DNA from: Thermoanaerobaculia bacterium
Lineage (GTDB): Bacteria > Acidobacteriota > Thermoanaerobaculia > Gp7-AA8
DNA length: 64,000 bases
NCBI GenBank assembly: GCA_017883205.1
Contig: JADGNZ010000012.1
Location: 8,151 to 72,150 of the forward strand
Direction: 5' to 3'
Part shown: positions 47,401 through 63,213 of the stretch, one piece after another
Layout: every line of letters begins with the position of its first letter
Numbering within the stretch: the stretch's first letter is position 1
The notes under the pieces: model-generated
What the model was told of the DNA's origin: nothing
What the model saw: the letters and a program-made list of their open reading frames with translations, nothing else
Database searches by the model: none
Made by a program: the position numbers and the translations under genes

Positions 47401-48824
47401 AATCGTTCGACGTCGTCGTCATCGGCGGCGGTACTGCCGGACTCGTGACCGCCTCCGGCTGCGCGCGCCTCGGGCGCAAGGTCGCGCTCATCGAGCGCGA
47501 GAAGCTCGGCGGCGACTGCCTCTGGACCGGCTGCGTTCCGACGAAAGCACTCGTGGCCTCGGCACGTCTCGCTCACCAGCTGCGACATGCCGATGCCTAC
47601 GGACTCGAGCCGCAGTCTGTGCGCGTGACGCCGAAGTCCGTCATGGATTCGATGCGCGCGCAGCGCCACTCCATCGAGCATCACGACGACCCCGCCAAGT
47701 TCCGCGCGCTCGGCATCGACGTCATCTTCGGCAACGCCAAACTCATCTCGCGAAAGGAAGTCGACGTCGACGGACGCCGCCTCATCGCCAAAGACATCGT
47801 CATCGCTACCGGCACCCGCACCTCCATCCCGCCGGTCGAAGGTCTGGCCGAGAACGGCTTCCTCGATCACGTCTCCTTCCTCAATCAGGACTCATTTCCC
47901 TCATCGCTACTAATCCTCGGCGGCGGCTACATCGGCATCGAATTCGCCCAGATCTTCCGCCGCTTCGGCAGCGAAGTCGTTGTCGTCGAGATGCTCGATG
48001 AGATCATCAACAAGGAAGACGCCGACGTGATCGCGCGCCTCCGCCGCATTCTCGGCGACGAGGGGATCGACATCCGCAGCGGCTGGGGCGCCAAGTCCGT
48101 GCGTCTCGACGCAGGTAAGAAAGTCGTCCGCATCGAGAACAAGCTCGGCGAGACGAAGGAGCTGCGCGTCGATGAGATCTTCGTCGCCAGCGGCCGCCGC
48201 GCAAACACGGAGAACCTCGGGCTCGAAGCCGCCGGCGTCAAAACCAACCGCGGATTCGTCGTCGTCGACAAGTACCTGCAGACGTCCGTCCCGCGCATCT
48301 GGGCTTGCGGCGACGTTCACGGCGGCATGCAGTTCACGCACGTCGCCGCGTACGAAGCGGTGAAGCTCGTGCGGAACATGCTCTTCCCCGGCCGCTCGCC
48401 CGTCAGCTACGACAACATCCCATGGGGTCTGTACACCGACCCCGAGGTGGGCCACATCGGCATGACCGAATCGGAGGCGAAGACAGCGCTCGGCGCGGAG
48501 AACGTTCGTTGCTACAGCGTCGAGATGGCCGAGGTCGACCGAGCGGTCGTCGATCGAACGACGGGGGGATTCGTGAAACTCGTCTGCGACAAACGCGGCC
48601 GCATCCTCGGCGCCCACGCACTCTGCGCCAACGCCTCAACCCTGATCGAGACGCTCGTCCTGGCGCGGCAGAAAAAGATGACCGTCGCCCAGCTCGCGGG
48701 CCTCGTCTCTCCCTACCCATCCCTCGCCGACGCCCTCGGAAAAGCTGCGTCGATGTACTACCAGGATGTGGCGAAGGGGTGGTTGGGTAAAGTCGGAAAG
48801 AAGATCGCAAAGTGGTCGCAGTAG
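47394..48824 (+). CDS. FAD-dependent pyridine nucleotide-disulfide oxidoreductase (class I; Lpd/MerA/glutathione-reductase family)
   Basis: FDVVVIGGGTAG, redox-active disulfide GGDCLWTGCVPTK, NAD-binding LLILGGGYIG, and a C-terminal dimerisation domain with HPS-like motif. Confidence 0.75.
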   Translation: MPESFDVVVIGGGTAGLVTASGCARLGRKVALIEREKLGGDCLWTGCVPTKALVASARLAHQLRHADAYGLEPQSVRVTPKSVMDSMRAQRHSIEHHDDPAKFRALGIDVIFGNAKLISRKEVDVDGRRLIAKDIVIATGTRTSIPPVEGLAENGFLDHVSFLNQDSFPSSLLILGGGYIGIEFAQIFRRFGSEVVVVEMLDEIINKEDADVIARLRRILGDEGIDIRSGWGAKSVRLDAGKKVVRIENKLGETKELRVDEIFVASGRRANTENLGLEAAGVKTNRGFVVVDKYLQTSVPRIWACGDVHGGMQFTHVAAYEAVKLVRNMLFPGRSPVSYDNIPWGLYTDPEVGHIGMTESEAKTALGAENVRCYSVEMAEVDRAVVDRTTGGFVKLVCDKRGRILGAHALCANASTLIETLVLARQKKMTVAQLAGLVSPYPSLADALGKAASMYYQDVAKGWLGKVGKKIAKWSQ

Positions 48825-48903
48825 GAACCTCAAAAGCTACTCCCCACGACACAAAGAGCCCATTCGCACTAGAATCACTCGAATTTTGCAAGACGGAGGC
48901 TTT

Positions 48904-49464
48904 ATGAAGAAACTTCTTGTAGTTCCGATCGCGCTTCTCTTCCTCGCCTGCGGCCACAGCAAGGGCCCGATGGCAAACGCCACAATCGATTCGACCAGCG
49001 GGTCGACTGCAAAAGGGACGGTTCATTTCCAGGATGCCGGCGAGAACGGCGTGGAAGTGGTCGTCGACCTCACCGGTGTTCCTCCGGGCGTCCACGGATT
49101 CCATGTTCACGAGAAGGGCGACTGCGGCAACAACGCGCAGAATGCAGGCGGTCACTTCAATCCCAACGGAATGGTTCACGGCGCACCCGATGCCGTCTCG
49201 CATCACGCCGGCGATTTCGGCAACGTAACTGCCGACGACAAGGGTGAGGTCCACACGCGCTTCACGACGCACTCGATCTCGATCAACACCGGCACGAACG
49301 CCGTCGTTGGCCATGCGGTCGTACTTCACGGCAACCCGGACGATCTCGTCTCGCAGCCCGCTGGCAATGCCGGCCCGCGCATCGGCTGCGGCGTGGTCAC
49401 GCTCGCGAACGCGGTCGCATCCGTGAACGGGCCCATGATGTTTCCCGCCAGGCGGACGACATGA
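48904..49464 (+). CDS. sodC: Cu/Zn superoxide dismutase, lipoprotein
   Basis: GFHVHEKGDCG...GGHFNP...HHAGDFGN...GNAGPRIGCGVV. Lipobox LLFLAC. An ATG at 48904 with a GGAGG ribosome-binding site. The track start at 48766 is an extension. Confidence 0.85.
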   Translation: MKKLLVVPIALLFLACGHSKGPMANATIDSTSGSTAKGTVHFQDAGENGVEVVVDLTGVPPGVHGFHVHEKGDCGNNAQNAGGHFNPNGMVHGAPDAVSHHAGDFGNVTADDKGEVHTRFTTHSISINTGTNAVVGHAVVLHGNPDDLVSQPAGNAGPRIGCGVVTLANAVASVNGPMMFPARRTT

Positions 49465-50376: not shown

Positions 50377-53199
50377 TCACTCCACCCATTTCGCAATAAA
50401 CAGATTCATCTCGTGGCTGTCCGGCTTCGCTCGGCCGGATGCCCAGATGAGGTACTGCCCGTCGGGGCTGAAGACGCAGAATCCGTCGAAACCTGGTGCG
50501 GTCGTGATGCGCTCCAGTCCCTGCCCGTCCTTCCCGATCGTCCAGAGATCGAAGTTGAATCCGGTGTTGTTCACGTTCGACGCGAAGATCAATCGCTTCC
50601 CGTCGTTCATGAAGTAGGGGCAGAAGTTCGCGGCGCCGTTGTGCGTGACCTGCCGCTCGTTCGTGCCGTCGGCGTTCATCAGGAAGAGCTCCATGTGCAG
50701 CGGCTTGACCAGTCCCTGCGCCAGCAGCGCGCGGTCTTCCACGAGCGCCGGACCGATCGGACGATTGGCGCGCCAGACGATCTCCGTGCAATCGGCGTTG
50801 TAGAACGCGCCGCCGTCGTAGCCGGGCGCGTTGGTCAGCCGCTTGACCTTCCCGCTCGCCTCGTCCATCTCGTACAGCTCCAGATCGCCATCGCGCATCG
50901 ACGTGAAAATCATCTTCCCGCCGCGATGGCACCACGTCATCTCCGCGTCGTAGCCCTCGGTCGTGGTGATCTTCTTGGGATTCGAGCCATCGACATTCGC
51001 TTCGACGACGTCGAACGATTTGTACACCGGCCAGACATAACCCTTCGACATATCCGGCCGCGGCGGACAGGCTGCGTCACCCCCTTCCGTGGTCGCATAC
51101 ACGATGCGATCGCCTTGTGGATAGCGGTAGTAGCCGCACGTCGTGCGCCCTTTGCCGCTCGAGACCAGCTTCGTCTCGCCGGTGACGAGATCCATCGTGT
51201 ACTCCTGATCGCATTCCGCGCCGGGCACGGTGGCCTGATAAATGATCTTTGTCCCGTCGGGGCTGAAGTACGCCTCGGCGTTCTCGCCGCCGAACGTGAG
51301 CTGGCGGATGTCTTTCAAGTGCTTCTCGCCTTCGAACGTCTTGTCGTACGGCTTGCCTGCACCGATGACGAGTGGCTTTGCAGGCGCAGGCGGATTGGCC
51401 GGCGGAGCGGCTGGCGGAACGCCGCCACGTGTGCTCAGCGTCGCGCGCAACGTCGTCCGCACTCCGGCGCGCATCACGACGATGTCGACCGTGTCGCCCG
51501 GCTTGTGATCCTGCAGCGCGTAGCTCATGTCGTACAGGTTCTCGATGCGCGTGCCGCCGATGTCGACGATGCGGTCGCCGCCCTTGATTCCCGCCTTGTC
51601 CGCAGGCGAGCCGCCGCGCACGTCCGACAGCAGCACGCCGCCGGTCGTTGCGTCCATCGCCGAGTAGTCGGGCACCGTGCCGAGGTATGCGCCGTAGCCG
51701 CGGCTGTCTCCTTGCATCATCGGAGCGGTCGAAGCGCGTGCGTACTGCGGCGTCACTTCGCCGCGCGCGAGCGGCGCCATCACGGCGGCGATCACTTTCA
51801 CCACGCGCGCCTCACCCGCGAAGTTGACTGAATCAGCGACATCCTCGGGTGTGTGATAGCGCTCGTGCGCGCCGGTGAAGAAGTGCAGCACCGGAACGTG
51901 CGCGGCGTAGAAGCTCGTCTGGTCCGACGGCCCGTATCCGTCGCCCGTCTCGGTGATTTTGAGATTTGATCCCGCGCCTGCCGCATTGACGAGCGCTTTC
52001 CACTCCGCCGCCGAGTCGGTGCCGAACGCTGTGATCTTGTCTTCGCGTAGCGCGCCGATCATGTCGAGATTGACCATCGCCACGATGTGGTCCATCGGCA
52101 CGGGCGGGTGATTGGCGAAATAGCCAGAGCCGGCCAGCCCACGCTCTTCGCCGGAGAAAAGCGCGAAGTAAATCGTCCGTCGGTTCTTGGCGTTCGCCAA
52201 CGAGTCGCGCAGCAACTCCGCCGCGTTCAGAACGCCGGCATCGCCGGAAGCGTTGTCATCCGCGCCGGGATGAATAGCGCGAACGTTCGGCTTCATCGAG
52301 CCTTCGCCGCCGTATCCGAGGTGATCGTAGTGGGCGCCGAGAACGACGATCTGTTCTCTGAGAGCGCCGCGACCGGGGAGCACGCCGACAAGGTTCTCGC
52401 CGTTGTCGAACTGCGGTGTGATGTCAGCAACGCCGCTGATGATCTTGCCGACCGCTTTCGAACGCGGCTTCAGATCGAGATCGACATCCTTCTGAAACTG
52501 CGCCAGGTCGATGCCCGAATCCTTGAGCCAGCTCTGTGCGACCGAGGTCTGCACCTGGATGACCGGGATGCCGGCAGGACTCTCCGGCCCGTCGTTCATG
52601 AGGCGCGGGATCTTGTCTTTTCCCTCGTCCTGAATCGGTCCGGTGACGAATACGACTGCAACCGCGCCGCGCTCGCGCGCCTTCAAAACCTTGTAACGCA
52701 TCGCCGACCAACGGCTCGGCTTGCGGCCATCGAACTTCGAGTTGTCGTCCTTCTCCTGCGGCTCGTAGCGCAGCATCAGCGCGACTTTGCCTTTGAGATC
52801 GACGCCATCGAAGTCGTTGTAGCCGATCGGCGTAGCGTCGATGCCGTAGCCGACGAACACGAGCGGACCGGAAAACGCTCCGGCGCTGGAGAACCCCAGC
52901 GGCAGCCACGCCGAAGGATCAACGCCCTCGAGCTTGTTGCCACTACCGAGCGAAACGCCAACCTTCACCGGAAAGGGCTGTCGGTACGACTTGCCGAACG
53001 CCGACTGCAACCCGAGCGCGTGCAGCCGCCCCTCGATGTAATCCGCCGCCAGGCCGATGCCCTTCGTGCCGAGGCCGCGGCCCTCCATGTTCGGGGCAGC
53101 AAGCGTCCGGATGTCGGTCTCGATCGATTTGGTCAGCTTGGCGTCATCTGCCAACGCGGTCGCACACACGAGCAGCAGCAAAAGAATCATTCGTTTCAT
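50377..53199 (-). CDS. secreted multidomain peptidase: M28 family aminopeptidase with PA and PDZ domains and a C-terminal TolB-like beta-propeller
   Basis: An ATG at 53199 gives signal peptide MKRMILLLLLVCATALA. M28 zinc ligands (HYDHLG...DDNASG...EERGLAGS...NLDMIG...H). PDZ (GDRIVDIGG). Repeated YxxSPDG propeller blades. Confidence 0.7.
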   Translation of the reverse strand: MKRMILLLLLVCATALADDAKLTKSIETDIRTLAAPNMEGRGLGTKGIGLAADYIEGRLHALGLQSAFGKSYRQPFPVKVGVSLGSGNKLEGVDPSAWLPLGFSSAGAFSGPLVFVGYGIDATPIGYNDFDGVDLKGKVALMLRYEPQEKDDNSKFDGRKPSRWSAMRYKVLKARERGAVAVVFVTGPIQDEGKDKIPRLMNDGPESPAGIPVIQVQTSVAQSWLKDSGIDLAQFQKDVDLDLKPRSKAVGKIISGVADITPQFDNGENLVGVLPGRGALREQIVVLGAHYDHLGYGGEGSMKPNVRAIHPGADDNASGDAGVLNAAELLRDSLANAKNRRTIYFALFSGEERGLAGSGYFANHPPVPMDHIVAMVNLDMIGALREDKITAFGTDSAAEWKALVNAAGAGSNLKITETGDGYGPSDQTSFYAAHVPVLHFFTGAHERYHTPEDVADSVNFAGEARVVKVIAAVMAPLARGEVTPQYARASTAPMMQGDSRGYGAYLGTVPDYSAMDATTGGVLLSDVRGGSPADKAGIKGGDRIVDIGGTRIENLYDMSYALQDHKPGDTVDIVVMRAGVRTTLRATLSTRGGVPPAAPPANPPAPAKPLVIGAGKPYDKTFEGEKHLKDIRQLTFGGENAEAYFSPDGTKIIYQATVPGAECDQEYTMDLVTGETKLVSSGKGRTTCGYYRYPQGDRIVYATTEGGDAACPPRPDMSKGYVWPVYKSFDVVEANVDGSNPKKITTTEGYDAEMTWCHRGGKMIFTSMRDGDLELYEMDEASGKVKRLTNAPGYDGGAFYNADCTEIVWRANRPIGPALVEDRALLAQGLVKPLHMELFLMNADGTNERQVTHNGAANFCPYFMNDGKRLIFASNVNNTGFNFDLWTIGKDGQGLERITTAPGFDGFCVFSPDGQYLIWASGRAKPDSHEMNLFIAKWVE

Positions 53200-53297
53200 C
53201 CCGCTATCGTATCTCTCCGCGGCGCGGCAGCCATAAGCGTGCTCACAACGCGATGTGACGGGACGCACTTCGGAAGAGTTTCGATATCATCCGCGGC

Positions 53298-54272
53298 ATG
53301 CCGAGTCCGATTCGCGACTTCATCCAGCACCACTACCGCCACTTCAACGCCGCCTCCCTCCGCGCTGCCGCCGACGACTACATCAAGCACATCGACGGCG
53401 GCAACAAGATGCTCCTGACGATGGCCGGGGCGATGTCGACCGCCGAGCTTGGGATCTCACTCGCCGAGATGATCCGGCAGGGCAAGATCCACGCGATTTG
53501 CTGCACCGGCGCGAACCTCGAGGAAGACATCTTCAACCTCGTCGCGCACGATCACTACGAGCGCGTGCCGGGCTATCGCTACCTGTCGGCGAACGATGAA
53601 AAGGCCTTGCTCGACCGGCACATGAACCGCGTCACCGACACCTGCATCCCCGAGGGCGAAGCGATGCGCCGGATCGAATCGGCGGTGTTGCGACACTGGA
53701 TGGCCAAAGACAAAGAAGGCCGCCGCCTCTTCCCGCACGAGTTCATGTACGAGATCCTTCGCGACGGCTCGATCAAAGAGTTCTACCAGATCGATCCGAA
53801 GAACTCCTGGATGATCGCCGCCGCCGAGAAGAACCTCCCCATGTTCGTCCCCGGCTGGGAAGACTCCACCCTCGGCAACATGTACACCGGCCACTGCATC
53901 ACCGGCGACGTCGCCAACGTCCACACCGTCCGCACCGGCATCGAATACATGATCGAGCTTGCCGACTACTACACAAAGACGACGAAGGATTCCTCCATCG
54001 GCTTCTTCCAGATCGGCGGCGGCATCGCCGGCGACTTCCCCATCTGCGTCGTCCCCATGCTCCACCAGGACCTGCAACGAACCAGCGTCCCGCTATGGGG
54101 TTACTTCTGCCAGATCAGCGACAGCACGACGAGCTTCGGGTCGTACTCCGGGGCGGTGCCGAACGAAAAGATTACGTGGGGGAAACTCGGAGTCGACACG
54201 CCGAGTCACGTGATCGAATCGGATGCGTCGATTGTCGCGCCGCTGATATTTGGGTATGTGTTGGGGTGGTAG
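53298..54272 (+). CDS. deoxyhypusine synthase-like protein
   Basis: DS family pattern: NKMLLTMAGAMSTAELG...IHAICCTGANLEED...GGGIAGDFP. Confidence 0.7.
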   Translation: MPSPIRDFIQHHYRHFNAASLRAAADDYIKHIDGGNKMLLTMAGAMSTAELGISLAEMIRQGKIHAICCTGANLEEDIFNLVAHDHYERVPGYRYLSANDEKALLDRHMNRVTDTCIPEGEAMRRIESAVLRHWMAKDKEGRRLFPHEFMYEILRDGSIKEFYQIDPKNSWMIAAAEKNLPMFVPGWEDSTLGNMYTGHCITGDVANVHTVRTGIEYMIELADYYTKTTKDSSIGFFQIGGGIAGDFPICVVPMLHQDLQRTSVPLWGYFCQISDSTTSFGSYSGAVPNEKITWGKLGVDTPSHVIESDASIVAPLIFGYVLGW

Positions 54273-58599: not shown

Positions 58600-58760
58600 G
58601 GAGTCGTTGTGTTGTTGGGCGTCGGGGGTCGTGGAGTTCTCGCTTTCGGGCTCCCGTGCGGGAGCCAGGCAATGGTCGATCCGAATGCTAGTCCACGGCC
58701 GACAGCCGCAAAATACGACCCCCGACCCCCGACACCACCCGACTCCCGTCAAATGTGTCG
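58600..58760. repeat. family B-like element containing a degenerate copy of the SemiSWEET N-terminal coding segment
   Basis: gtcgggggtcgtgg ... cgacccccgacccccgacaccacccgactccc. The segment 58655-58715 is about 85% identical to 58035-58092 inside the SemiSWEET gene. Confidence 0.6.
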
Positions 58761-58840
58761 CACATCACAGGGCGGCGTAGATACCGTCACGTTCTCTTGT
58801 TCACGCCGGTCCGATGATTCCTTTGACAAACGGAGACGAC

Positions 58841-60025
58841 ATGATCAGCGTGACGAAACTACTCGGTGGCTCCTCTTACTTTGGTGACCGGCTTCGCTAT
58901 CACGATCAATCAGCGCACCAGACCAGCGGCGCGCGCCCTGGCAGTGGACCGGTCGTGGTGTGGAACGCCACGAAAACGTGCAATCTCGAATGCGTTCACT
59001 GCTATGCGGATGCGGAGACCATCAAGTTCGCGAACGAGCTGACGACAGCCGAAGCGAAGGCGATGATCGAGGATCTGGCGGCACTCAATGTGCCTGCGCT
59101 TCTGATCTCCGGCGGCGAACCGCTCGTGCGCCCCGACATCTTCGAGCTCGCCGCATACGCGATGTCCCTCGGCGTTCGCGTGACGTTCTCGACGAACGGA
59201 ACGCTGATCACGAAAGAAAAGGCGAAGAAGATCGCCGACATCGGCGTGACCTACGTCGGCATCAGCGTCGACGGCGACGAAGAGCGTCACGACCGCATGC
59301 GTTGCCGCGAAGGCGCCTACAAAGATGCCCTGCGCGGCATTCGCAACTGCCGCGATGCCGGCATCCGCGTCGGCGTCCGCTTCACGGTGACGCAGGACAA
59401 CCTCGACGAAGTCGATAGCGTTTTCCGTCTCGTGGAGAACGAAGGCATCGGCCGGCTTTGCATCTACCACCTCGTCTATTCAGGCCGCGGCTCATATCTC
59501 GAAGGAATCGATCTCGAGGCCGAGCAGAAGCGCGTGTTGATGAACAAGCTCCTCGAACAGGTCGAACGATGGACCGCCGAGGGACGCGAGATTGAAGTGA
59601 TGACCGTCGACAATCATGCCGACGCCCCCTTCATCTATTACTGGCTGCTCGACCGCGATCCGGTTCGCGCGGACGAAGCGCTCTCGCTGATGCGCAACAA
59701 CGGCGGCAACCGCTCCGGCATCGCCATCGCCGCGATCGACAGCTTCGGGATCGTTCATCCGGATCAGTTCACCTCGACGCATGCGGTCGGATCGATCCGG
59801 GAACGGCCGTTCTCGCAAATCTGGAATGACTCGCGGATCCAGCTTCTGAACAATTTGCGCGACCGCAAGCCGTTGCTGCGCGGACGCTGCGCAACCTGTC
59901 AATGGCTGTCGTGTTGCAACGGCAACTTCCGCGCGCGCGCCGAGGCTGCTACGGGCGACTACTGGCAGTCCGATCCGGGGTGCTACCTGCTCGATTCAGA
60001 AGTCATCTCGGGGGCGCCGGAATGA
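58841..60025 (+). CDS. radical SAM/SPASM protein of the NirJ/AhbC/AhbD family
   Basis: CNLECVHC (CX3CX2C). C-terminal Cys cluster CATCQWLSCCNG...DPGCY. An ATG at 58841 with a GGAG ribosome-binding site. Confidence 0.75.
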   Translation: MISVTKLLGGSSYFGDRLRYHDQSAHQTSGARPGSGPVVVWNATKTCNLECVHCYADAETIKFANELTTAEAKAMIEDLAALNVPALLISGGEPLVRPDIFELAAYAMSLGVRVTFSTNGTLITKEKAKKIADIGVTYVGISVDGDEERHDRMRCREGAYKDALRGIRNCRDAGIRVGVRFTVTQDNLDEVDSVFRLVENEGIGRLCIYHLVYSGRGSYLEGIDLEAEQKRVLMNKLLEQVERWTAEGREIEVMTVDNHADAPFIYYWLLDRDPVRADEALSLMRNNGGNRSGIAIAAIDSFGIVHPDQFTSTHAVGSIRERPFSQIWNDSRIQLLNNLRDRKPLLRGRCATCQWLSCCNGNFRARAEAATGDYWQSDPGCYLLDSEVISGAPE

Positions 60026-61182
60026 TCGGGCTTGAAGCCGAGGTGACAACGCCGGACGTTACATCGTTCGCTGACGACGGGCCGGCCGACCCATCCATTC
60101 GCGCCAGCGATCCGATCAATCGCCGCATCCTGGAAGTGTCGGAAGATCGCGTTCGCGGATTCGTGAGCGATCCGTTCGGCACGATCGCCGAGTTGTCAGG
60201 CGTGCCGCTCCCTATCGTCACGCAACGAATTCGGGCGATGCTGGAAGCGGGAACGATTCGCCGCGTACGGCAGACGCTGCTGGCGACGAACCTCGCACAA
60301 GGCGCGCTCGTGGCCTGGAAGATCGATGAAGAGCTGCTCGACGCTGCCTTCGCATTCATCGCCAAACGCGATCCCTTCTCCGGCCACGTCGTCATCCGCA
60401 ACGGCGAGAATGGCCCAACGGAGTGGCGCCTCTGGACGACGATCAAAGTTCCTTCGGAGTTTTCGCTGGAGGGACACTGCGAGTATCTTCGCCGCAGGAT
60501 CGGCGCCCACAAGTTTCGCATCATGCCCACGCTTCGCGCTTTCGTACTAGGCGTCGGCCACATGCGCCGCAAAGGGATGGCCATCGGCGCGATGTCGCCG
60601 CTTCCCGCAGCAGCAACGCAGCCTGCGGTCGTCGAGCTTTCCGAGCCTGAATGGCACGTCCTCTCGGCGCTCAAAGCCGATCTGGCACCGGCGGAGATCG
60701 GGCCGGGATTGTGGTCACGGCGCGCACTGGCAGCGGGGATTCATCCCGCTACGTTCCTCGAGATCGCCAGCGCTCTCGACCGCCGCGGCGTGATCGGACG
60801 CTTCTCCACATTCCTCGAGCACACCAAACCGGTAGCCGGAGCCGAGCGCGTCTCGAGCTTCAACGGTCTCTTTCACTGGGCCGTGCCGGCGGGGCGCGAG
60901 ATCGAAGCGGGATGCGAGATCGGCCGCTTCGAGATCCTGACGCACTGCTACTGGCGCGATGCCGGGCCGGAATTGAACAACGTCAACATCATGGCCGTCG
61001 CGCACGGCGAAAAAAAAGAAAGCGTGATGGCGCACAAGAGCGCGATCGACGCGCACCTCAACGCCATCGGCATCGGCTTCACCCACACGAACGTGTACTG
61101 GGGAGGCCGCGCCGAGATCAAGCCGTCGGAGATTCTGCCCGAGGCGTACCGCGATTGGGCACGGAGCACGGGACTTCTATGA
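60022..61182 (+). CDS. fused tandem Lrp/AsnC-like siroheme decarboxylase (AhbA-AhbB / NirD-L type)
   Basis: Two tandem HTH plus RAM-like halves (INRRILEVSEDRVRGF...SGHVVIRNG; LSEPEWHVLSALKADL...). ATGA overlaps at both ends, so it is translationally coupled to both radical SAM genes. Confidence 0.6.
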   Translation: MIGLEAEVTTPDVTSFADDGPADPSIRASDPINRRILEVSEDRVRGFVSDPFGTIAELSGVPLPIVTQRIRAMLEAGTIRRVRQTLLATNLAQGALVAWKIDEELLDAAFAFIAKRDPFSGHVVIRNGENGPTEWRLWTTIKVPSEFSLEGHCEYLRRRIGAHKFRIMPTLRAFVLGVGHMRRKGMAIGAMSPLPAAATQPAVVELSEPEWHVLSALKADLAPAEIGPGLWSRRALAAGIHPATFLEIASALDRRGVIGRFSTFLEHTKPVAGAERVSSFNGLFHWAVPAGREIEAGCEIGRFEILTHCYWRDAGPELNNVNIMAVAHGEKKESVMAHKSAIDAHLNAIGIGFTHTNVYWGGRAEIKPSEILPEAYRDWARSTGLL

Positions 61183-62330
61183 ACGATACAGTCGATTTCA
61201 ACGTCAGTCCGTTTGTGGTCATCTGGGAAAACACGCGCGCCTGCGATCTCGCATGCGTGCACTGCCGCGCTGCCGCGCAACCGAAACGGAGCCAGTTCGA
61301 GCTCACGACCGAACAAGGCTTCGCGCTCATCGATGAAGTGGCGGTGATGAAGCCGCGCGTCTTTGTCATCACCGGCGGCGATCCGCTCAAGCGCGAAGAC
61401 ACGTACGACATGATCCGCTACGCGAAGGACCGCGGGCTCGAGCCGGCGCTGACACCGAGCGCAACGCCGCTGCTCACCGAGGCGGCGGTCTCGCGGATGA
61501 AGAAACACGGCCTGTCGCGCCTCGCGGTCAGTCTCGACGCCTCGCGCGCCGATATGCACGACGCCTTCCGCCGCGTCGATGGCTCGTTCGACATCACGAT
61601 CCGCGCGATCGAGGCTGCGGCAAAAGAAGGGATTCCAGTCCAGATCAACACCACAGTCACGCGGCGCACGATCGACGATCTGCCCAACATGGTCAGGCTG
61701 CTCACCGACCTCGGCATCGCCATGTGGAGCGTCTTCTTTCTCGTTCCGACCGGACGCGGCAAGCGGGGCGACCTCGTCACCGCGGAGACGGTCGAGCATC
61801 TCTTCAGCTTTCTCTACGAGACGGCGAAACGCGCTCCGTTCGCCATCCGCACGACGGAAGCGATGCACTACCGCCGCTATATGCTTCAGCGGATGGCGCT
61901 GGAAAACGGCCGCCGCATCGACGATCTGCGCGACCACGAGACCGGCCTGATCGACGCCTCCACCCTCTTCCTCGGCCACGGCAGCCGCCCCATGCCCCTC
62001 GGCGTCAAAGCACAACACGCCGCCACCTCGCGCGCACCCCGCGGCGTGAACGAAGGCAAAGGCTTCGTCTTCATCTCCCACATCGGCGACGTCTTCCCCA
62101 GCGGCTTCCTGCCCTTGAAAGCCGGCAACGTGAAGACCGAGTCGCTCAGCGAGATCTACCGCACCAGCGACCTCTTCGTCTCCCTCCGCAACACCAGCAA
62201 CCTCAAAGGCAAATGCGGCCGCTGCGAGTTCCGGGATCTATGCGGCGGGTCACGGGCGAGGGCCTGGTCAATGACGGGAGACGTGTTCCAAGAAGATCCG
62301 TTGTGCGGGTATCAGCCGAAGGTGGCGTAG
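61179..62330 (+). CDS. radical SAM protein of the NirJ/AhbC/AhbD family (second paralog)
   Basis: CDLACVHC, with C-terminal CGRCEFRDLCGG...PLCGY. The track ORF 60651..62330 is extended upstream. Confidence 0.75.
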   Translation: MNDTVDFNVSPFVVIWENTRACDLACVHCRAAAQPKRSQFELTTEQGFALIDEVAVMKPRVFVITGGDPLKREDTYDMIRYAKDRGLEPALTPSATPLLTEAAVSRMKKHGLSRLAVSLDASRADMHDAFRRVDGSFDITIRAIEAAAKEGIPVQINTTVTRRTIDDLPNMVRLLTDLGIAMWSVFFLVPTGRGKRGDLVTAETVEHLFSFLYETAKRAPFAIRTTEAMHYRRYMLQRMALENGRRIDDLRDHETGLIDASTLFLGHGSRPMPLGVKAQHAATSRAPRGVNEGKGFVFISHIGDVFPSGFLPLKAGNVKTESLSEIYRTSDLFVSLRNTSNLKGKCGRCEFRDLCGGSRARAWSMTGDVFQEDPLCGYQPKVA

Positions 62331-62414
62331 GAGGGGGGCCCGTCGTCAGCATCGCGCGTACCCACCGCCGGGCGAGACGCCCGCCGGCCGCAGGCGAGAC
62401 GCCTGCACTCCCTG

Positions 62415-62654
62415 ATGTACTCTCCGCAGGATGAGGGGCGAAGGCTGATGTTGGATCTGATCTATTTGCTTTCGATCGTCGCTGCCGCGGTCGCGCTGTA
62501 CTACAAGTTCAGCTACAGGCGCGGAGTGCGACGTCTTGTTGCTCAGATCGAGCAACAGCTATCGGCCGAAAAAGAGAAGGCAGCCTCGGGTGACACTGAG
62601 TCGAAAGCCGCCGACCAGTCATTGACCACAGAGGCGCAGGGGTCGCAGAGTTGA
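62415..62654 (+). CDS. small hypothetical membrane protein
   Basis: One TM helix (LMLDLIYLLSIVAAAVALYY). Weak support. Confidence 0.3.
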   Translation: MYSPQDEGRRLMLDLIYLLSIVAAAVALYYKFSYRRGVRRLVAQIEQQLSAEKEKAASGDTESKAADQSLTTEAQGSQS

Positions 62655-62745
62655 GCGATACCTCTGTGCTCTCAGTGTCTCTGTGGTTAAGGGTTTGGTA
62701 CTGGCCCTTGAGCGCTACCGCCTGCGGCGTTACGATGCCATCGCG

Positions 62746-63213
62746 ATGACCAAAGCCGCTGCCTGCCCGATCTCCTACGAAACTGTCGATCACAACGCCA
62801 GCCGCGTGACGTGCATCCTCACGATCGTTGCCCTGGCTGCGATCTCCGCGATGGCGGTGCTGTGGCCGGGTCTCGGAACGATTGCGTTGATCCTCGCCGC
62901 CGCGCTGACGCTGGACTACGCGATCCGTGCCTGGACCAGATACCCGAGCCCGATGCAAAGCCTCGCACGCGGGTTCGCGCGGGCGTTCGGCATCCCCGAG
63001 AAACGGAGCGACGCCGCGCCCAAGCGTTTCGCTTGCCGCATCGGCTTCTTCTTCGCCCTCGGCACCGTGGCGCTTTTACCCGTGGCCCCCAGGATCGCGG
63101 TCATGGTGGCGGGCGCTCTCCTGTTTTTCAACGTACTCGACGGCGTATTCGACTTCTGCGTCGGCTGCTGGATGTACTCGACGTTCCTGCTGCCGCGGGG
63201 TACGGACGCCTAA
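62746..63213 (+). CDS. DUF4395 family membrane protein
   Basis: ATG at 62746 (MTKAAACPISYE). Hydrophobic helices and a C-terminal FDFCVGCWMY motif. Confidence 0.55.
   Translation: MTKAAACPISYETVDHNASRVTCILTIVALAAISAMAVLWPGLGTIALILAAALTLDYAIRAWTRYPSPMQSLARGFARAFGIPEKRSDAAPKRFACRIGFFFALGTVALLPVAPRIAVMVAGALLFFNVLDGVFDFCVGCWMYSTFLLPRGTDA

What the first reader, a model, noticed from the sequence alone, without database searches (positions are those of the whole stretch)
58841..62330. Radical SAM, fused AhbA/B-like decarboxylase, radical SAM operon: alternative (siroheme-dependent) heme or heme d1 biosynthesis
Three translationally coupled genes with ATGA overlaps. The two NirJ/AhbC/AhbD-family radical SAM enzymes both carry CX3CX2C motifs and C-terminal Cys clusters. 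They flank a tandem Lrp/AsnC-like protein of the siroheme decarboxylase type. Two radical SAMs plus the decarboxylase fits the AhbAB-AhbC-AhbD route (siroheme to heme b) rather than NirDL-NirJ alone. This would be notable next to men genes and an aerobic-type respiratory chain.
Basis: partly seen in the sequence, partly recalled or inferred. Interest (0 to 1): 0.55.

Follow-up and report, generated by a model that had tools for sequence, protein, structure and literature searches.

The report
Oxygen-independent sirohaem-to-haem gene cassette
A soil or permafrost acidobacterium with no ferrochelatase carries a self-contained three-gene cassette, with its own FNR-type control site, that most likely turns sirohaem into haem without oxygen; the pathway is known, but its decarboxylase belongs to an unrecognised branch annotated everywhere as a regulator, and most relatives lack the cassette's key enzyme and have no known substitute.

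Summary
The three coupled genes are real: A 58841-60025, B 60022-61182 and C 61179-62330, with ATGA overlaps.

- **A** is NirJ1/AhbC-like.
- **C** is a TIGR04053 radical SAM/SPASM enzyme, the nearest relative of AhbD.
- **B** has the NirDL/AhbAB fold. It keeps HCYWR and HVVIR at the two HXYXR sites but fails the NCBIfam cut-offs.

The 99.7%-complete genome has no HemE, HemH, HemY-type oxidase or cd1/NirF/NirN. It does have hemC, cobA-hemD, a CysG N-domain and ChdC.

New points:
- A higher-scoring "canonical" AhbAB paralogue elsewhere has lost the histidines.
- A second paralogue, B', occurs in 36 of 41 family genomes. It tracks the sirohaem synthase domain and is missing exactly where ferrochelatase is present.
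- A-B-C is an accessory cassette (15 of 41 genomes) with non-conserved flanks and a conserved CRP/FNR-type box. It probably provides haem synthesis without oxygen.
- The 21 ferrochelatase-less relatives that lack the cassette also lack A, the AhbC-like enzyme; 20 have no NirJ-family radical SAM enzyme at all. All 41 have haem-copper oxidases. That step is unexplained.

The scan noted this cassette before in another genome (e1-1149945). Verdict: a new variant of a known kind.

The parts
58754..58769 (+). 16-bp palindrome TGTGTCGCACATCACA, a CRP/FNR-type box 87 nt upstream of the start of gene A
   Evidence: A box of the form TGTGWC-N4-GWCACA lies 71-110 nt upstream of A in 12 of 12 cassette loci from different genera. 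Only 11 sites in the whole genome score 17 or more, against 0 in the reversed genome. One of these sites precedes an FNR-like regulator gene.
58841..60025 (+). Gene A: AhbC/NirJ1-like radical SAM/SPASM enzyme, 394 aa (inferred 12,18-didecarboxysirohaem deacetylase)
   Evidence: NCBIfam gives NirJ1 556.6, AhbC 467.2 and NirJ 404.5 bits, all full-length and all below their cut-offs. Pfam finds Radical_SAM and SPASM.
58979..59002 (+). CX3CX2C radical SAM cluster motif of A (C47, C51, C54)
59888..59983 (+). Auxiliary-cluster motif of A, CX2CX5CX21C (C350, C353, C359, C381)
   Evidence: The motif CX2CX5CX20-21C is described for NirJ and AhbC in PMC12505453.
60022..61182 (+). Gene B: fused two-module AsnC-fold protein of the NirDL/AhbAB type, 386 aa (inferred sirohaem decarboxylase, divergent clade)
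   Evidence: NCBIfam gives AhbB 76.6 and AhbA 48.5 bits, both below cut-off. phmmer matches NirDL 4ch7 at 8e-14 over residues 46-337. The AF2 model has pLDDT 89.4, and Foldseek's best match is NirDL at E 7e-18, TM 0.77 by target.
60385..60399 (+). N-half motif H122-V-V-I-R126 at the position of HXYXR. His and Arg are kept; Tyr is replaced by Val.
   Evidence: The motif is conserved in all 12 B and 5 B' sequences aligned, with only V/I exchanges. The motif and the roles of its residues are from PMC4145669.
60943..60957 (+). C-half motif H308-C-Y-W-R312, a complete HXYXR that includes the equivalent of the essential Arg102 of AhbB
   Evidence: PMC4145669.
61179..62330 (+). Gene C: TIGR04053-family radical SAM/SPASM enzyme, 383 aa (inferred oxygen-independent coprohaem decarboxylase, AhbD-like)
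   Evidence: TIGR04053 scores 470.6 bits against a cut-off of 395. AhbD scores 333.6 bits against a cut-off of 500.
61242..61265 (+). CX3CX2C motif of C (C22, C26, C29)
62214..62306 (+). Auxiliary-cluster motif of C, CX2CX5CX20C (C346, C349, C355, C376)

Best explanation
A-B-C is a self-contained, conditionally expressed module that converts sirohaem to haem b without oxygen.

Proposed steps:
1. B decarboxylates the C12 and C18 acetates of sirohaem.
2. A (AhbC type) removes the C2 and C7 acetates by radical SAM chemistry, giving Fe-coproporphyrin III.
3. C (TIGR04053, AhbD-like) converts two propionates to vinyls.

A CRP/FNR-type box upstream suggests induction by an FNR-like regulator, probably when oxygen is low.

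The organism has no ferrochelatase route. Its standing route uses a paralogue of B (B'), a CysG N-domain enzyme and the oxidant-dependent ChdC. The cassette therefore adds an anoxic way of finishing haem.

Shown: gene structure, folds, motifs, family assignments and the distribution across genomes. Inferred: every catalytic activity, the regulator and the signal.
For: 1. Family assignment of A, B and C, with cluster motifs intact.

2. B has the NirDL fold. It keeps both histidines and both arginines of the HXYXR sites without exception across 12 B and 5 B' sequences. The residue roles come from PMC4145669.

3. The 99.73%-complete genome lacks PF00762, PF01208, PF02239 and TIGR00562. It has hemC, cobA-hemD, a CysG N-domain and ChdC. 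It also has three COX1 genes.

4. In 41 family genomes, B' is present in 36 and ferrochelatase only in the other 5. The CysG N-domain is found in 35 of the 36 B' genomes and in none of the 5.

5. The high-scoring paralogue has Gln at the N-half His position in all 14 copies examined across this and the sister family. It has H, Q, R or G at the C-half His position. It occurs in 40 of 41 genomes regardless of ferrochelatase.

6. The cassette order is conserved in 12 loci with unrelated flanks.

7. The two B' genomes without ChdC both carry the cassette.

8. The box is conserved in 12 of 12 loci. It is rare in the genome and absent upstream of B', ChdC and the other paralogue. It also sits in front of an FNR-like gene with an N-terminal CX2CX8C motif and in front of another radical SAM gene.

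9. The same two-ended design (AhbABC, then ChdC in air or AhbD without air) has been shown genetically in Haloferax volcanii (PMC5746218).
Against: - A, B and C all fall below the equivalog cut-offs of AhbC, AhbA/AhbB and AhbD.
- No TIGR04053 member with a tested activity was found; a literature search returned nothing.
- The N-half of B has Val where the family motif has Tyr.
- A paralogue that does pass both AhbA and AhbB cut-offs exists at G000:C1:171152-172159 and could be the real decarboxylase.
- All 15 cassette genomes keep B' as well as B, which is odd if the two do the same job.
- The regulator, its oxygen sensing and any expression are untested.
- The pairing of the two ChdC-less genomes with the cassette is only 2 of 2 and could be chance.
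Confidence: 0.68

Rival explanations
1. B is not the decarboxylase. The high-scoring fused AhbAB paralogue on contig C1 makes didecarboxysirohaem. B and B' are tetrapyrrole-binding helpers (substrate carriers or scaffolds for AhbC/AhbD and ChdC) or haem-sensing regulators that kept the AsnC fold.
For: - The C1 paralogue scores 230.6 bits (AhbA) and 226.2 bits (AhbB), both above cut-off. B scores 48.5 and 76.6 bits.
- B and B' are both retained in all 15 cassette genomes, which suggests they are not redundant.
- D. vulgaris and M. barkeri AhbA/B copurify with haem, and a DNA-binding role for the fold has not been excluded (PMC4145669).
- Public records name the close homologues of B Lrp/AsnC regulators.
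Against: - The C1 paralogue has Gln in place of the iron-ligand His in every copy examined. It varies (H, Q, R, G) at the second His.
- It is present in the five ferrochelatase genomes, which lack the CysG N-domain, and in a sister-family genome with HemH and HemE.
- B and B' keep His and Arg at both sites without exception.
- B' follows the sirohaem synthase domain and the absence of ferrochelatase exactly.
- B is translationally coupled to two enzymes.
Confidence: 0.17
2. The cassette makes a modified tetrapyrrole other than haem b, such as a haem d1-like or an undescribed cofactor. A and C would then act as NirJ-like side-chain-removing enzymes with other specificities.
For: - A also scores 404.5 bits on NirJ, and 407.8 bits on a haloarchaeal pseudo-SAM family.
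- C belongs to TIGR04053, a family with no named function.
- The cassette is accessory and is exchanged between genomes.
- A third TIGR04053-like paralogue exists on contig C49.
Against: - No Cytochrom_D1 family protein (NirS, NirF, NirN) is present in the genome.
- A scores higher on NirJ1 and AhbC than on NirJ.
- The two ChdC-less, ferrochelatase-less genomes need a coprohaem decarboxylase, and both carry the cassette.
- All genomes have haem-copper oxidases.
Confidence: 0.1
3. The two radical SAM/SPASM enzymes are peptide maturases, and B is their Lrp-type regulator.
For: SPASM domains are common in peptide maturases. Weak matches to mycofactocin, PqqE and sactipeptide maturase models exist.
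Against: - Those matches are 85-151 bits against cut-offs of 265-725 bits and mostly cover only the radical SAM core. The NirJ/Ahb family models match end to end at 330-560 bits.
- No short precursor ORF lies between or beside the genes.
- B has the NirDL fold with catalytic motifs.
Confidence: 0.02

Closest known systems
Sirohaem-dependent (alternative, Ahb) haem biosynthesis: AhbA/B, AhbC and AhbD of Desulfovibrio and Methanosarcina barkeri (Bali et al. 2011, as reviewed in PMC7242693 and PMC13564367)
   Same: The enzyme types and the inferred order of reactions are the same: an AsnC-fold decarboxylase followed by two NirJ-family radical SAM/SPASM enzymes. The genome also lacks HemE and HemH.
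   Different: - The decarboxylase is one fused chain of a divergent clade that fails the AhbA and AhbB models.
- The last enzyme is TIGR04053 rather than TIGR04545.
- The host is an oxidase-bearing soil acidobacterium.
- The genes form an accessory, FNR-box cassette rather than part of a hem cluster. An acidobacterial genome of another family (G128) has the classical ahbC-hemB-ahbD-hemL-ahbAB cluster.
Haloferax volcanii haem synthesis: two fused AhbA/B-type proteins (NirDL, NirGH), AhbC, AhbD for anaerobic growth and the ChdC-domain protein PitA for aerobic growth (PMC5746218)
   Same: Several fused decarboxylase paralogues are present. There is no UroD, CgoX or CpfC. Both ChdC and a radical SAM coprohaem decarboxylase follow the same sirohaem branch.
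   Different: - This organism is bacterial.
- Its ChdC is not fused to an ABM domain.
- The radical SAM steps and one decarboxylase paralogue are packaged as one cassette.
- Most relatives lack AhbC altogether, which is not the case in haloarchaea.
NirDL of Hydrogenobacter thermophilus (PDB 4ch7, 4czc), the fused sirohaem decarboxylase of haem d1 synthesis
   Same: It is the best sequence and structure match to B over the full length, and the two-module fusion is the same.
   Different: - Sequence identity is about 20%.
- B has about five extra residues after the N-half motif, and Val replaces Tyr there.
- The genome has no cd1 nitrite reductase, NirF or NirN.
AhbD-type enzymes in coproporphyrin-pathway bacteria that lack the other Ahb genes (PMC13564367; PMC10548856)
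   Same: A radical SAM coprohaem decarboxylase serves as the oxygen-independent alternative to ChdC.
   Different: Here coprohaem would come from sirohaem, not from HemE, CgoX and CpfC, none of which was found.

Membership tests
Sirohaem decarboxylase AhbA/AhbB - NirDL/NirGH | Two AsnC/Lrp-fold modules (a heterodimer or a fusion) that form one cleft | tested here: met
   Pfam finds AsnC_trans_reg2 twice. The AF2 model has pLDDT 89.4. Foldseek's top hits are 4ch7 and 4czc at E 7e-18 over the full length.
Sirohaem decarboxylase AhbA/AhbB - NirDL/NirGH | HXYXR motif in the AhbB-like half (His98, Tyr100 and the essential Arg102 of D. desulfuricans AhbB) | tested here: met
   H308-C-Y-W-R312 has His, Tyr and Arg invariant in all B and B' sequences aligned. 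The motif is from PMC4145669.
Sirohaem decarboxylase AhbA/AhbB - NirDL/NirGH | HXYXR motif in the AhbA-like half (His115 as iron ligand, Arg119 to the propionate) | tested here: inconclusive
   The motif is H122-V-V-I-R126. His and Arg are kept, and Tyr is replaced by Val in every B and B' sequence. No role is reported for the AhbA tyrosine.
Sirohaem decarboxylase AhbA/AhbB - NirDL/NirGH | Score above the NCBIfam equivalog cut-offs (NF040708: 140 bits; NF040707: 125 bits) | tested here: not met
   B scores 48.5 and 76.6 bits. The paralogue on contig C1 passes both at 230.6 and 226.2 bits.
Sirohaem decarboxylase AhbA/AhbB - NirDL/NirGH | Occurs with sirohaem synthesis and with AhbC/AhbD or NirJ partners | tested here: met
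   B lies between A and C in 11 of 12 loci and next to A in the twelfth. Its paralogue B' co-occurs with the CysG N-domain in 35 of 36 genomes and never with ferrochelatase.
Sirohaem decarboxylase AhbA/AhbB - NirDL/NirGH | Converts sirohaem to 12,18-didecarboxysirohaem | not testable with these tools
   This needs an enzyme assay.
AhbC (TIGR04546) / NirJ1 (TIGR04054) | Radical SAM CX3CX2C motif plus a C-terminal CX2CX5CX20-21C motif | tested here: met
   C47, C51 and C54 form the first motif. C350, C353, C359 and C381 form the second. The motif is from PMC12505453.
AhbC (TIGR04546) / NirJ1 (TIGR04054) | Score above the equivalog cut-off (650 bits for both models) | tested here: not met
   A scores 556.6 bits (NirJ1) and 467.2 bits (AhbC). 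Both matches are end to end and are the two best hits.
AhbD, haem b synthase (TIGR04545) | Score above the equivalog cut-off (500 bits) | tested here: not met
   C scores 333.6 bits in two stretches. The AhbD in the classical acidobacterial cluster of G128 scores 496.4 bits.
TIGR04053 radical SAM/SPASM family (function unnamed) | Score above the equivalog cut-off (395 bits) | tested here: met
   C scores 470.6 bits over positions 1-366 of 366. The C49 paralogue scores 337.9 bits and fails.
Haem d1 pathway (NirJ with NirS, NirF, NirN) | cd1 nitrite reductase and NirF/NirN beta-propellers present in the genome | tested here: not met
   PF02239 gives no match in the 99.73%-complete genome. A scores 404.5 bits on NirJ against a cut-off of 515.
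CRP/FNR-regulated promoter | Palindromic TGTGA-N6-TCACA-like box at promoter distance, and a cognate regulator in the genome | tested here: inconclusive
   The box is conserved in 12 of 12 loci. Two FNR-like genes with N-terminal CX2CX8C motifs are present, and one of them has the same box upstream. Binding and the signal sensed are untested.

The most novel reading that the evidence does not exclude
The B/B' clade marks an unrecognised, ferrochelatase-free haem route that is the norm in a large family of soil Acidobacteriota.

In 21 of 36 such genomes there is no AhbC, and in 20 of them no NirJ-family radical SAM enzyme at all. All of them encode haem-copper oxidases, a sirohaem synthase domain, B' and ChdC. 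So an undescribed enzyme, probably oxygen- or peroxide-dependent, would have to convert didecarboxysirohaem to coprohaem. It might involve B' or the divergent ChdC.

The A-B-C cassette would then be the anoxic bypass of that route. B and B' would be non-redundant partners matched to their downstream enzymes.
Probability: 0.3. Interest if true: 0.8.

Novelty: new variant of a known kind. Interest (0 to 1): 0.55.

Why it matters
Reviews place Acidobacteria among users of the coproporphyrin (HemQ) route (PMC5095920). They describe the sirohaem route as one of sulfate reducers and archaea (PMC7242693).

Here a whole family of oxidase-bearing soil and permafrost Acidobacteriota appears to insert iron at the sirohaem stage and has dropped ferrochelatase. 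Its decarboxylase clade is labelled "Lrp/AsnC transcriptional regulator" in public records. Pathway surveys that rely on annotation or on HMM cut-offs would therefore call these genomes haem auxotrophs, or would pick the wrong paralogue.

The cassette shows how an oxygen-independent finish to haem synthesis can be carried and exchanged as a regulated three-gene unit.

The AhbC-less relatives give a concrete place to look for a missing enzyme of haem synthesis.

Tried and rejected
- **Candidates for the missing AhbC step in cassette-less relatives**
  - The 431-aa ORF abutting ChdC is not conserved beside ChdC in 6 other genomes.
  - The 554-aa polytopic membrane ORF after B' has no Pfam hit and is present at only some B' loci.
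  - The SPASM radical SAM gene at C46:21259-22530 occurs in only 15 of 41 genomes and is absent from G039.
- **Neighbours of B'** (metH, prfC) and of the C1 paralogue (isocitrate dehydrogenase, an Abi_C protein) have no tetrapyrrole link.
- **Promoter and terminator consensus scan** of 58650-62750 gave nothing above the shuffled expectation.
- **Sequencing runs:** the stretch is held fully by one permafrost metagenome run, which may be its source. No RNA holder is listed.
- **Literature:** there are no papers on TIGR04053. The NirDL structure paper (PMID 25083922) is not held, so which two histidines it calls essential could not be read. Only its title is cited.
- **PDB sequence search with C** found only distant radical SAM enzymes (BlsE, PqqE).
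- **Which control genome passes TIGR04053** could not be determined.
- **Cassette tree:** the same-genus pair G000 and G156 group together, which fits vertical descent. The G173+G186 clade is rejected (AU p 0.0004), but that pair was chosen after the tree had been seen.


Full report
**1. What is there**

Three + strand genes occupy 58841-62330.
- A is 58841-60025 (394 aa).
- B is 60022-61182 (386 aa).
- C is 61179-62330 (383 aa).

Both junctions are ATGA overlaps. A and C have Radical_SAM and SPASM domains. Each carries CX3CX2C and a C-terminal CX2CX5CX20/21C motif, the motif described for NirJ and AhbC (PMC12505453). B has two AsnC-type ligand-domain copies.

The genes upstream on the other strand are a YtxH-like gene, an isochorismate synthase and menD. 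A DUF4395 gene lies downstream. Close homologues of B come from MAGs labelled Thermoanaerobaculia or Acidobacteriota. The stretch is held by a permafrost metagenome run.

**2. Family assignment**

| Protein | Best NCBIfam matches | Cut-off |
|---|---|---|
| A | NirJ1 556.6; AhbC 467.2; NirJ 404.5 | 650; 650; 515 |
| B | AhbB 76.6; AhbA 48.5 (the only hits) | 125; 140 |
| C | TIGR04053 470.6 (passes); AhbD 333.6 | 395; 500 |

Peptide-maturase models score far lower and mostly cover only the radical SAM core.

B aligns with the fused sirohaem decarboxylase NirDL (4ch7) over residues 46-337 at E 8e-14. An AlphaFold2 model (pLDDT 89.4, pTM 0.84) has NirDL as its best PDB match (E 7e-18, full length). 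AhbA/B is next, ahead of true Lrp/AsnC regulators.

**3. Genome context**

The window lies in a 6.37-Mb genome that is 99.73% complete.

- Not found: ferrochelatase, UroD, Cytochrom_D1 (NirS/NirF/NirN), CbiX and a HemY-type oxidase.
- Present: hemC and a cobA-hemD fusion, a CysG N-domain protein (precorrin-2 dehydrogenase/sirohydrochlorin ferrochelatase type), a ChdC-like protein and three COX1 genes.

Haem d1 is excluded as the purpose.

**4. The twist: three fused decarboxylase-like genes**

Besides B, the genome has two further paralogues.
- B' lies at C31:68696-69829 and is 60% identical to B. It stands alone between metH and prfC.
- A "canonical" paralogue lies at C1:171152-172159. It passes both the AhbA (230.6 bits) and AhbB (226.2 bits) cut-offs.

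Palmer et al. (PMC4145669) define an HXYXR motif in both subunits. His115 of AhbA ligates the iron. In AhbB, His98 is the proposed acid/base, Tyr100 a proposed proton donor, and Arg102 is essential by mutagenesis.

B and B' have HVVIR and HCYWR at these sites, conserved across 17 sequences with only V/I and A/C exchanges.

The canonical-scoring paralogue has QNY(R/K/L)R in the N-half in all 14 copies examined from this family and its sister family. It has H, Q, R or G at the C-half His position. Two acidobacterial genomes from other families keep His in both halves of a true AhbAB/NirDL-type gene:
- G128 has it in an ahbC-hemB-ahbD-hemL-ahbAB cluster.
- G118 has it beside a NirJ-like gene and a beta-propeller gene, with no AhbD at that locus.

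**5. Distribution across genomes**

In a sample of 151 genomes of the phylum, B-type genes occur only in the window's own family.

Counts in 41 genomes of that family, all at least 90% complete:

| Feature | Genomes |
|---|---|
| B' | 36 |
| Ferrochelatase | the other 5 only |
| CysG N-domain | 35 of the 36 B' genomes, none of the 5 |
| HemY-type oxidase | 3 of the 5 only |
| ChdC | 34 of the 36 B' genomes, plus 1 of the 5 |
| Canonical-scoring paralogue | 40 of 41, including all 5 with ferrochelatase |
| COX1 | 41 |

The canonical-scoring paralogue also occurs in a sister-family genome that has HemH and HemE.

So B', not the high-scoring paralogue, follows sirohaem synthesis and the loss of ferrochelatase. 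Together with the motifs, this makes the B/B' clade the likely active decarboxylase.

These tallies include one unpublished genome, G183. It carries B', ChdC, the canonical-scoring paralogue, the CysG N-domain and COX1. Leaving it out changes each count by one and changes no conclusion.

**6. The cassette**

A is present in 16 of 41 genomes. In 15 of them B lies next to it and C is clustered with them. The order A-B-C holds in 11 of the 12 loci examined; in the twelfth (G151) C lies on the opposite strand. The flanking genes are not shared.

Presence differs within genera, for example between G156 and G180.

B and B' form separate clades. In the concatenated A+B+C tree the same-genus pair G000 and G156 group together. 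The congeners G173 and G186 are rejected as a clade (AU p 0.0004). Their cassettes are 67.8% identical, against 84.6% for their B' genes. This pair was chosen after the tree had been seen. The cassette therefore behaves as an accessory unit with some exchange within the family.

**7. Regulation (inferred)**

A 16-bp palindrome of the form TGTGWC-N4-GWCACA lies 71-110 nt upstream of A in 12 of 12 loci. In the window it is at 58754-58769.

A weight matrix built from these sites finds only 11 sites in the genome at a score of 17 or more, against none in the reversed genome. None lies in front of B', ChdC, the canonical-scoring paralogue or the C49 radical SAM gene.

- One site sits about 85 nt upstream of an FNR-like gene with an N-terminal CX2CX8C motif. 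A second FNR-like paralogue lies beside it.
- Another site precedes a further radical SAM gene.

This fits control by an FNR-type regulator, and so probably by oxygen. Neither binding nor the signal has been tested.

**8. Model**

The standing route is sirohaem (made by cobA-hemD and the CysG N-domain enzyme), then B', then an unknown step, then ChdC.

The cassette supplies B, A (AhbC type) and C (AhbD-like) as an oxygen-independent route from sirohaem to haem b. Consistent with this, the only two B' genomes without ChdC both carry the cassette. That is only 2 of 2 and could be chance.

The design parallels Haloferax volcanii. There, deleting ahbD impairs anaerobic growth and deleting the ChdC-domain gene pitA impairs aerobic growth (PMC5746218).

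**9. What stays unexplained**

- Of the 36 ferrochelatase-less genomes, 21 lack the cassette. Twenty of these have no NirJ-family radical SAM enzyme at E 1e-40 or better. G039 and G067 were also checked at 1e-20. No known enzyme then converts didecarboxysirohaem to coprohaem. Three candidates were tested and rejected. These genomes are 91-100% complete, so chance loss from the assemblies is unlikely, but systematic binning loss cannot be excluded.
- All cassette genomes keep both B and B', so the two may not be redundant.
- The role of the canonical-scoring paralogue is open.

**10. Novelty**

The pathway and the ChdC/AhbD pairing are known.

New here are:
- the divergent B/B' decarboxylase clade, annotated as a regulator in public records;
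- the misleading high-scoring paralogue;
- the replacement of ferrochelatase by the sirohaem route across most of an acidobacterial family;
- the packaging of the anoxic steps as an FNR-box cassette;
- the relatives that lack AhbC.

Searches of the held literature linking Acidobacteria to the sirohaem route returned only general reviews.

The scan had already noted the same cassette in another genome (e1-1149945) and many "orphan" THCYWRE-type genes, which are B'.

Noticed in passing
G000:C1:171152-172159 (L013:6153-7160): A fused AhbAB-like paralogue passes both NCBIfam cut-offs, but Gln replaces the iron-ligand His in all 14 copies examined and the second His position varies. It occurs in 40 of 41 family genomes, including those with ferrochelatase and no CysG N-domain. 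Its function is unclear.
   Followed up: partly
G000:C31:68696-69829 (L012:6697-7830): B' is a stand-alone paralogue of B (60% identity) lying between metH and prfC. It is present in 36 of 41 family genomes and is exactly complementary to ferrochelatase.
   Followed up: yes
Family genomes G039, G067, G170, G172, G180 and 16 others: These genomes have no ferrochelatase and no AhbC-like gene, and 20 of the 21 have no NirJ-family radical SAM enzyme. They do have B' and haem-copper oxidases, and nearly all have ChdC and a CysG N-domain. The step from didecarboxysirohaem to coprohaem has no known enzyme there.
   Followed up: partly
G000:C49:122742-130354 (L002, L045): This stretch looks like a low-oxygen island. 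It holds a third NirJ-family radical SAM gene (TIGR04053-like, 337.9 bits) flanked by two universal-stress-protein genes. It also holds two FNR-like regulators with N-terminal CX2CX8C motifs, one preceded by the cassette-type box, and a UbiE/MenG-type methyltransferase.
   Followed up: partly
G000:C49:108049 (L044:5050), upstream of L044:5132-6409: The best-scoring copy of the CRP/FNR-type box in the genome lies in front of a 'variant radical SAM' (NF045502) gene of unknown role.
   Followed up: no
L021 (G118:C33:69000-79000): An acidobacterial genome of another family has a NirJ-like radical SAM gene, a beta-propeller gene and a NirDL-like fusion in a row. This looks like a haem d1-type cluster.
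   Followed up: no
L022 (G128:C10:30000-39500): A small (2.5 Mb) acidobacterial genome carries a classical ahbC-hemB-ahbD-hemL-ahbAB cluster. Its AhbD scores 496 bits, and its decarboxylase keeps both histidines.
   Followed up: partly
window 50377-53268 (-): A 963-aa protein combines PA, M28 peptidase, PDZ and PD40 beta-propeller repeats. The same architecture sits near a distant B'-like gene in other metagenome contigs (L024).
   Followed up: no
window 53298-54272 (+) and 48766-49464 (+): A deoxyhypusine synthase-like gene and a Cu/Zn superoxide dismutase lie in the window. The dismutase fits an oxygen-exposed lifestyle.
   Followed up: no
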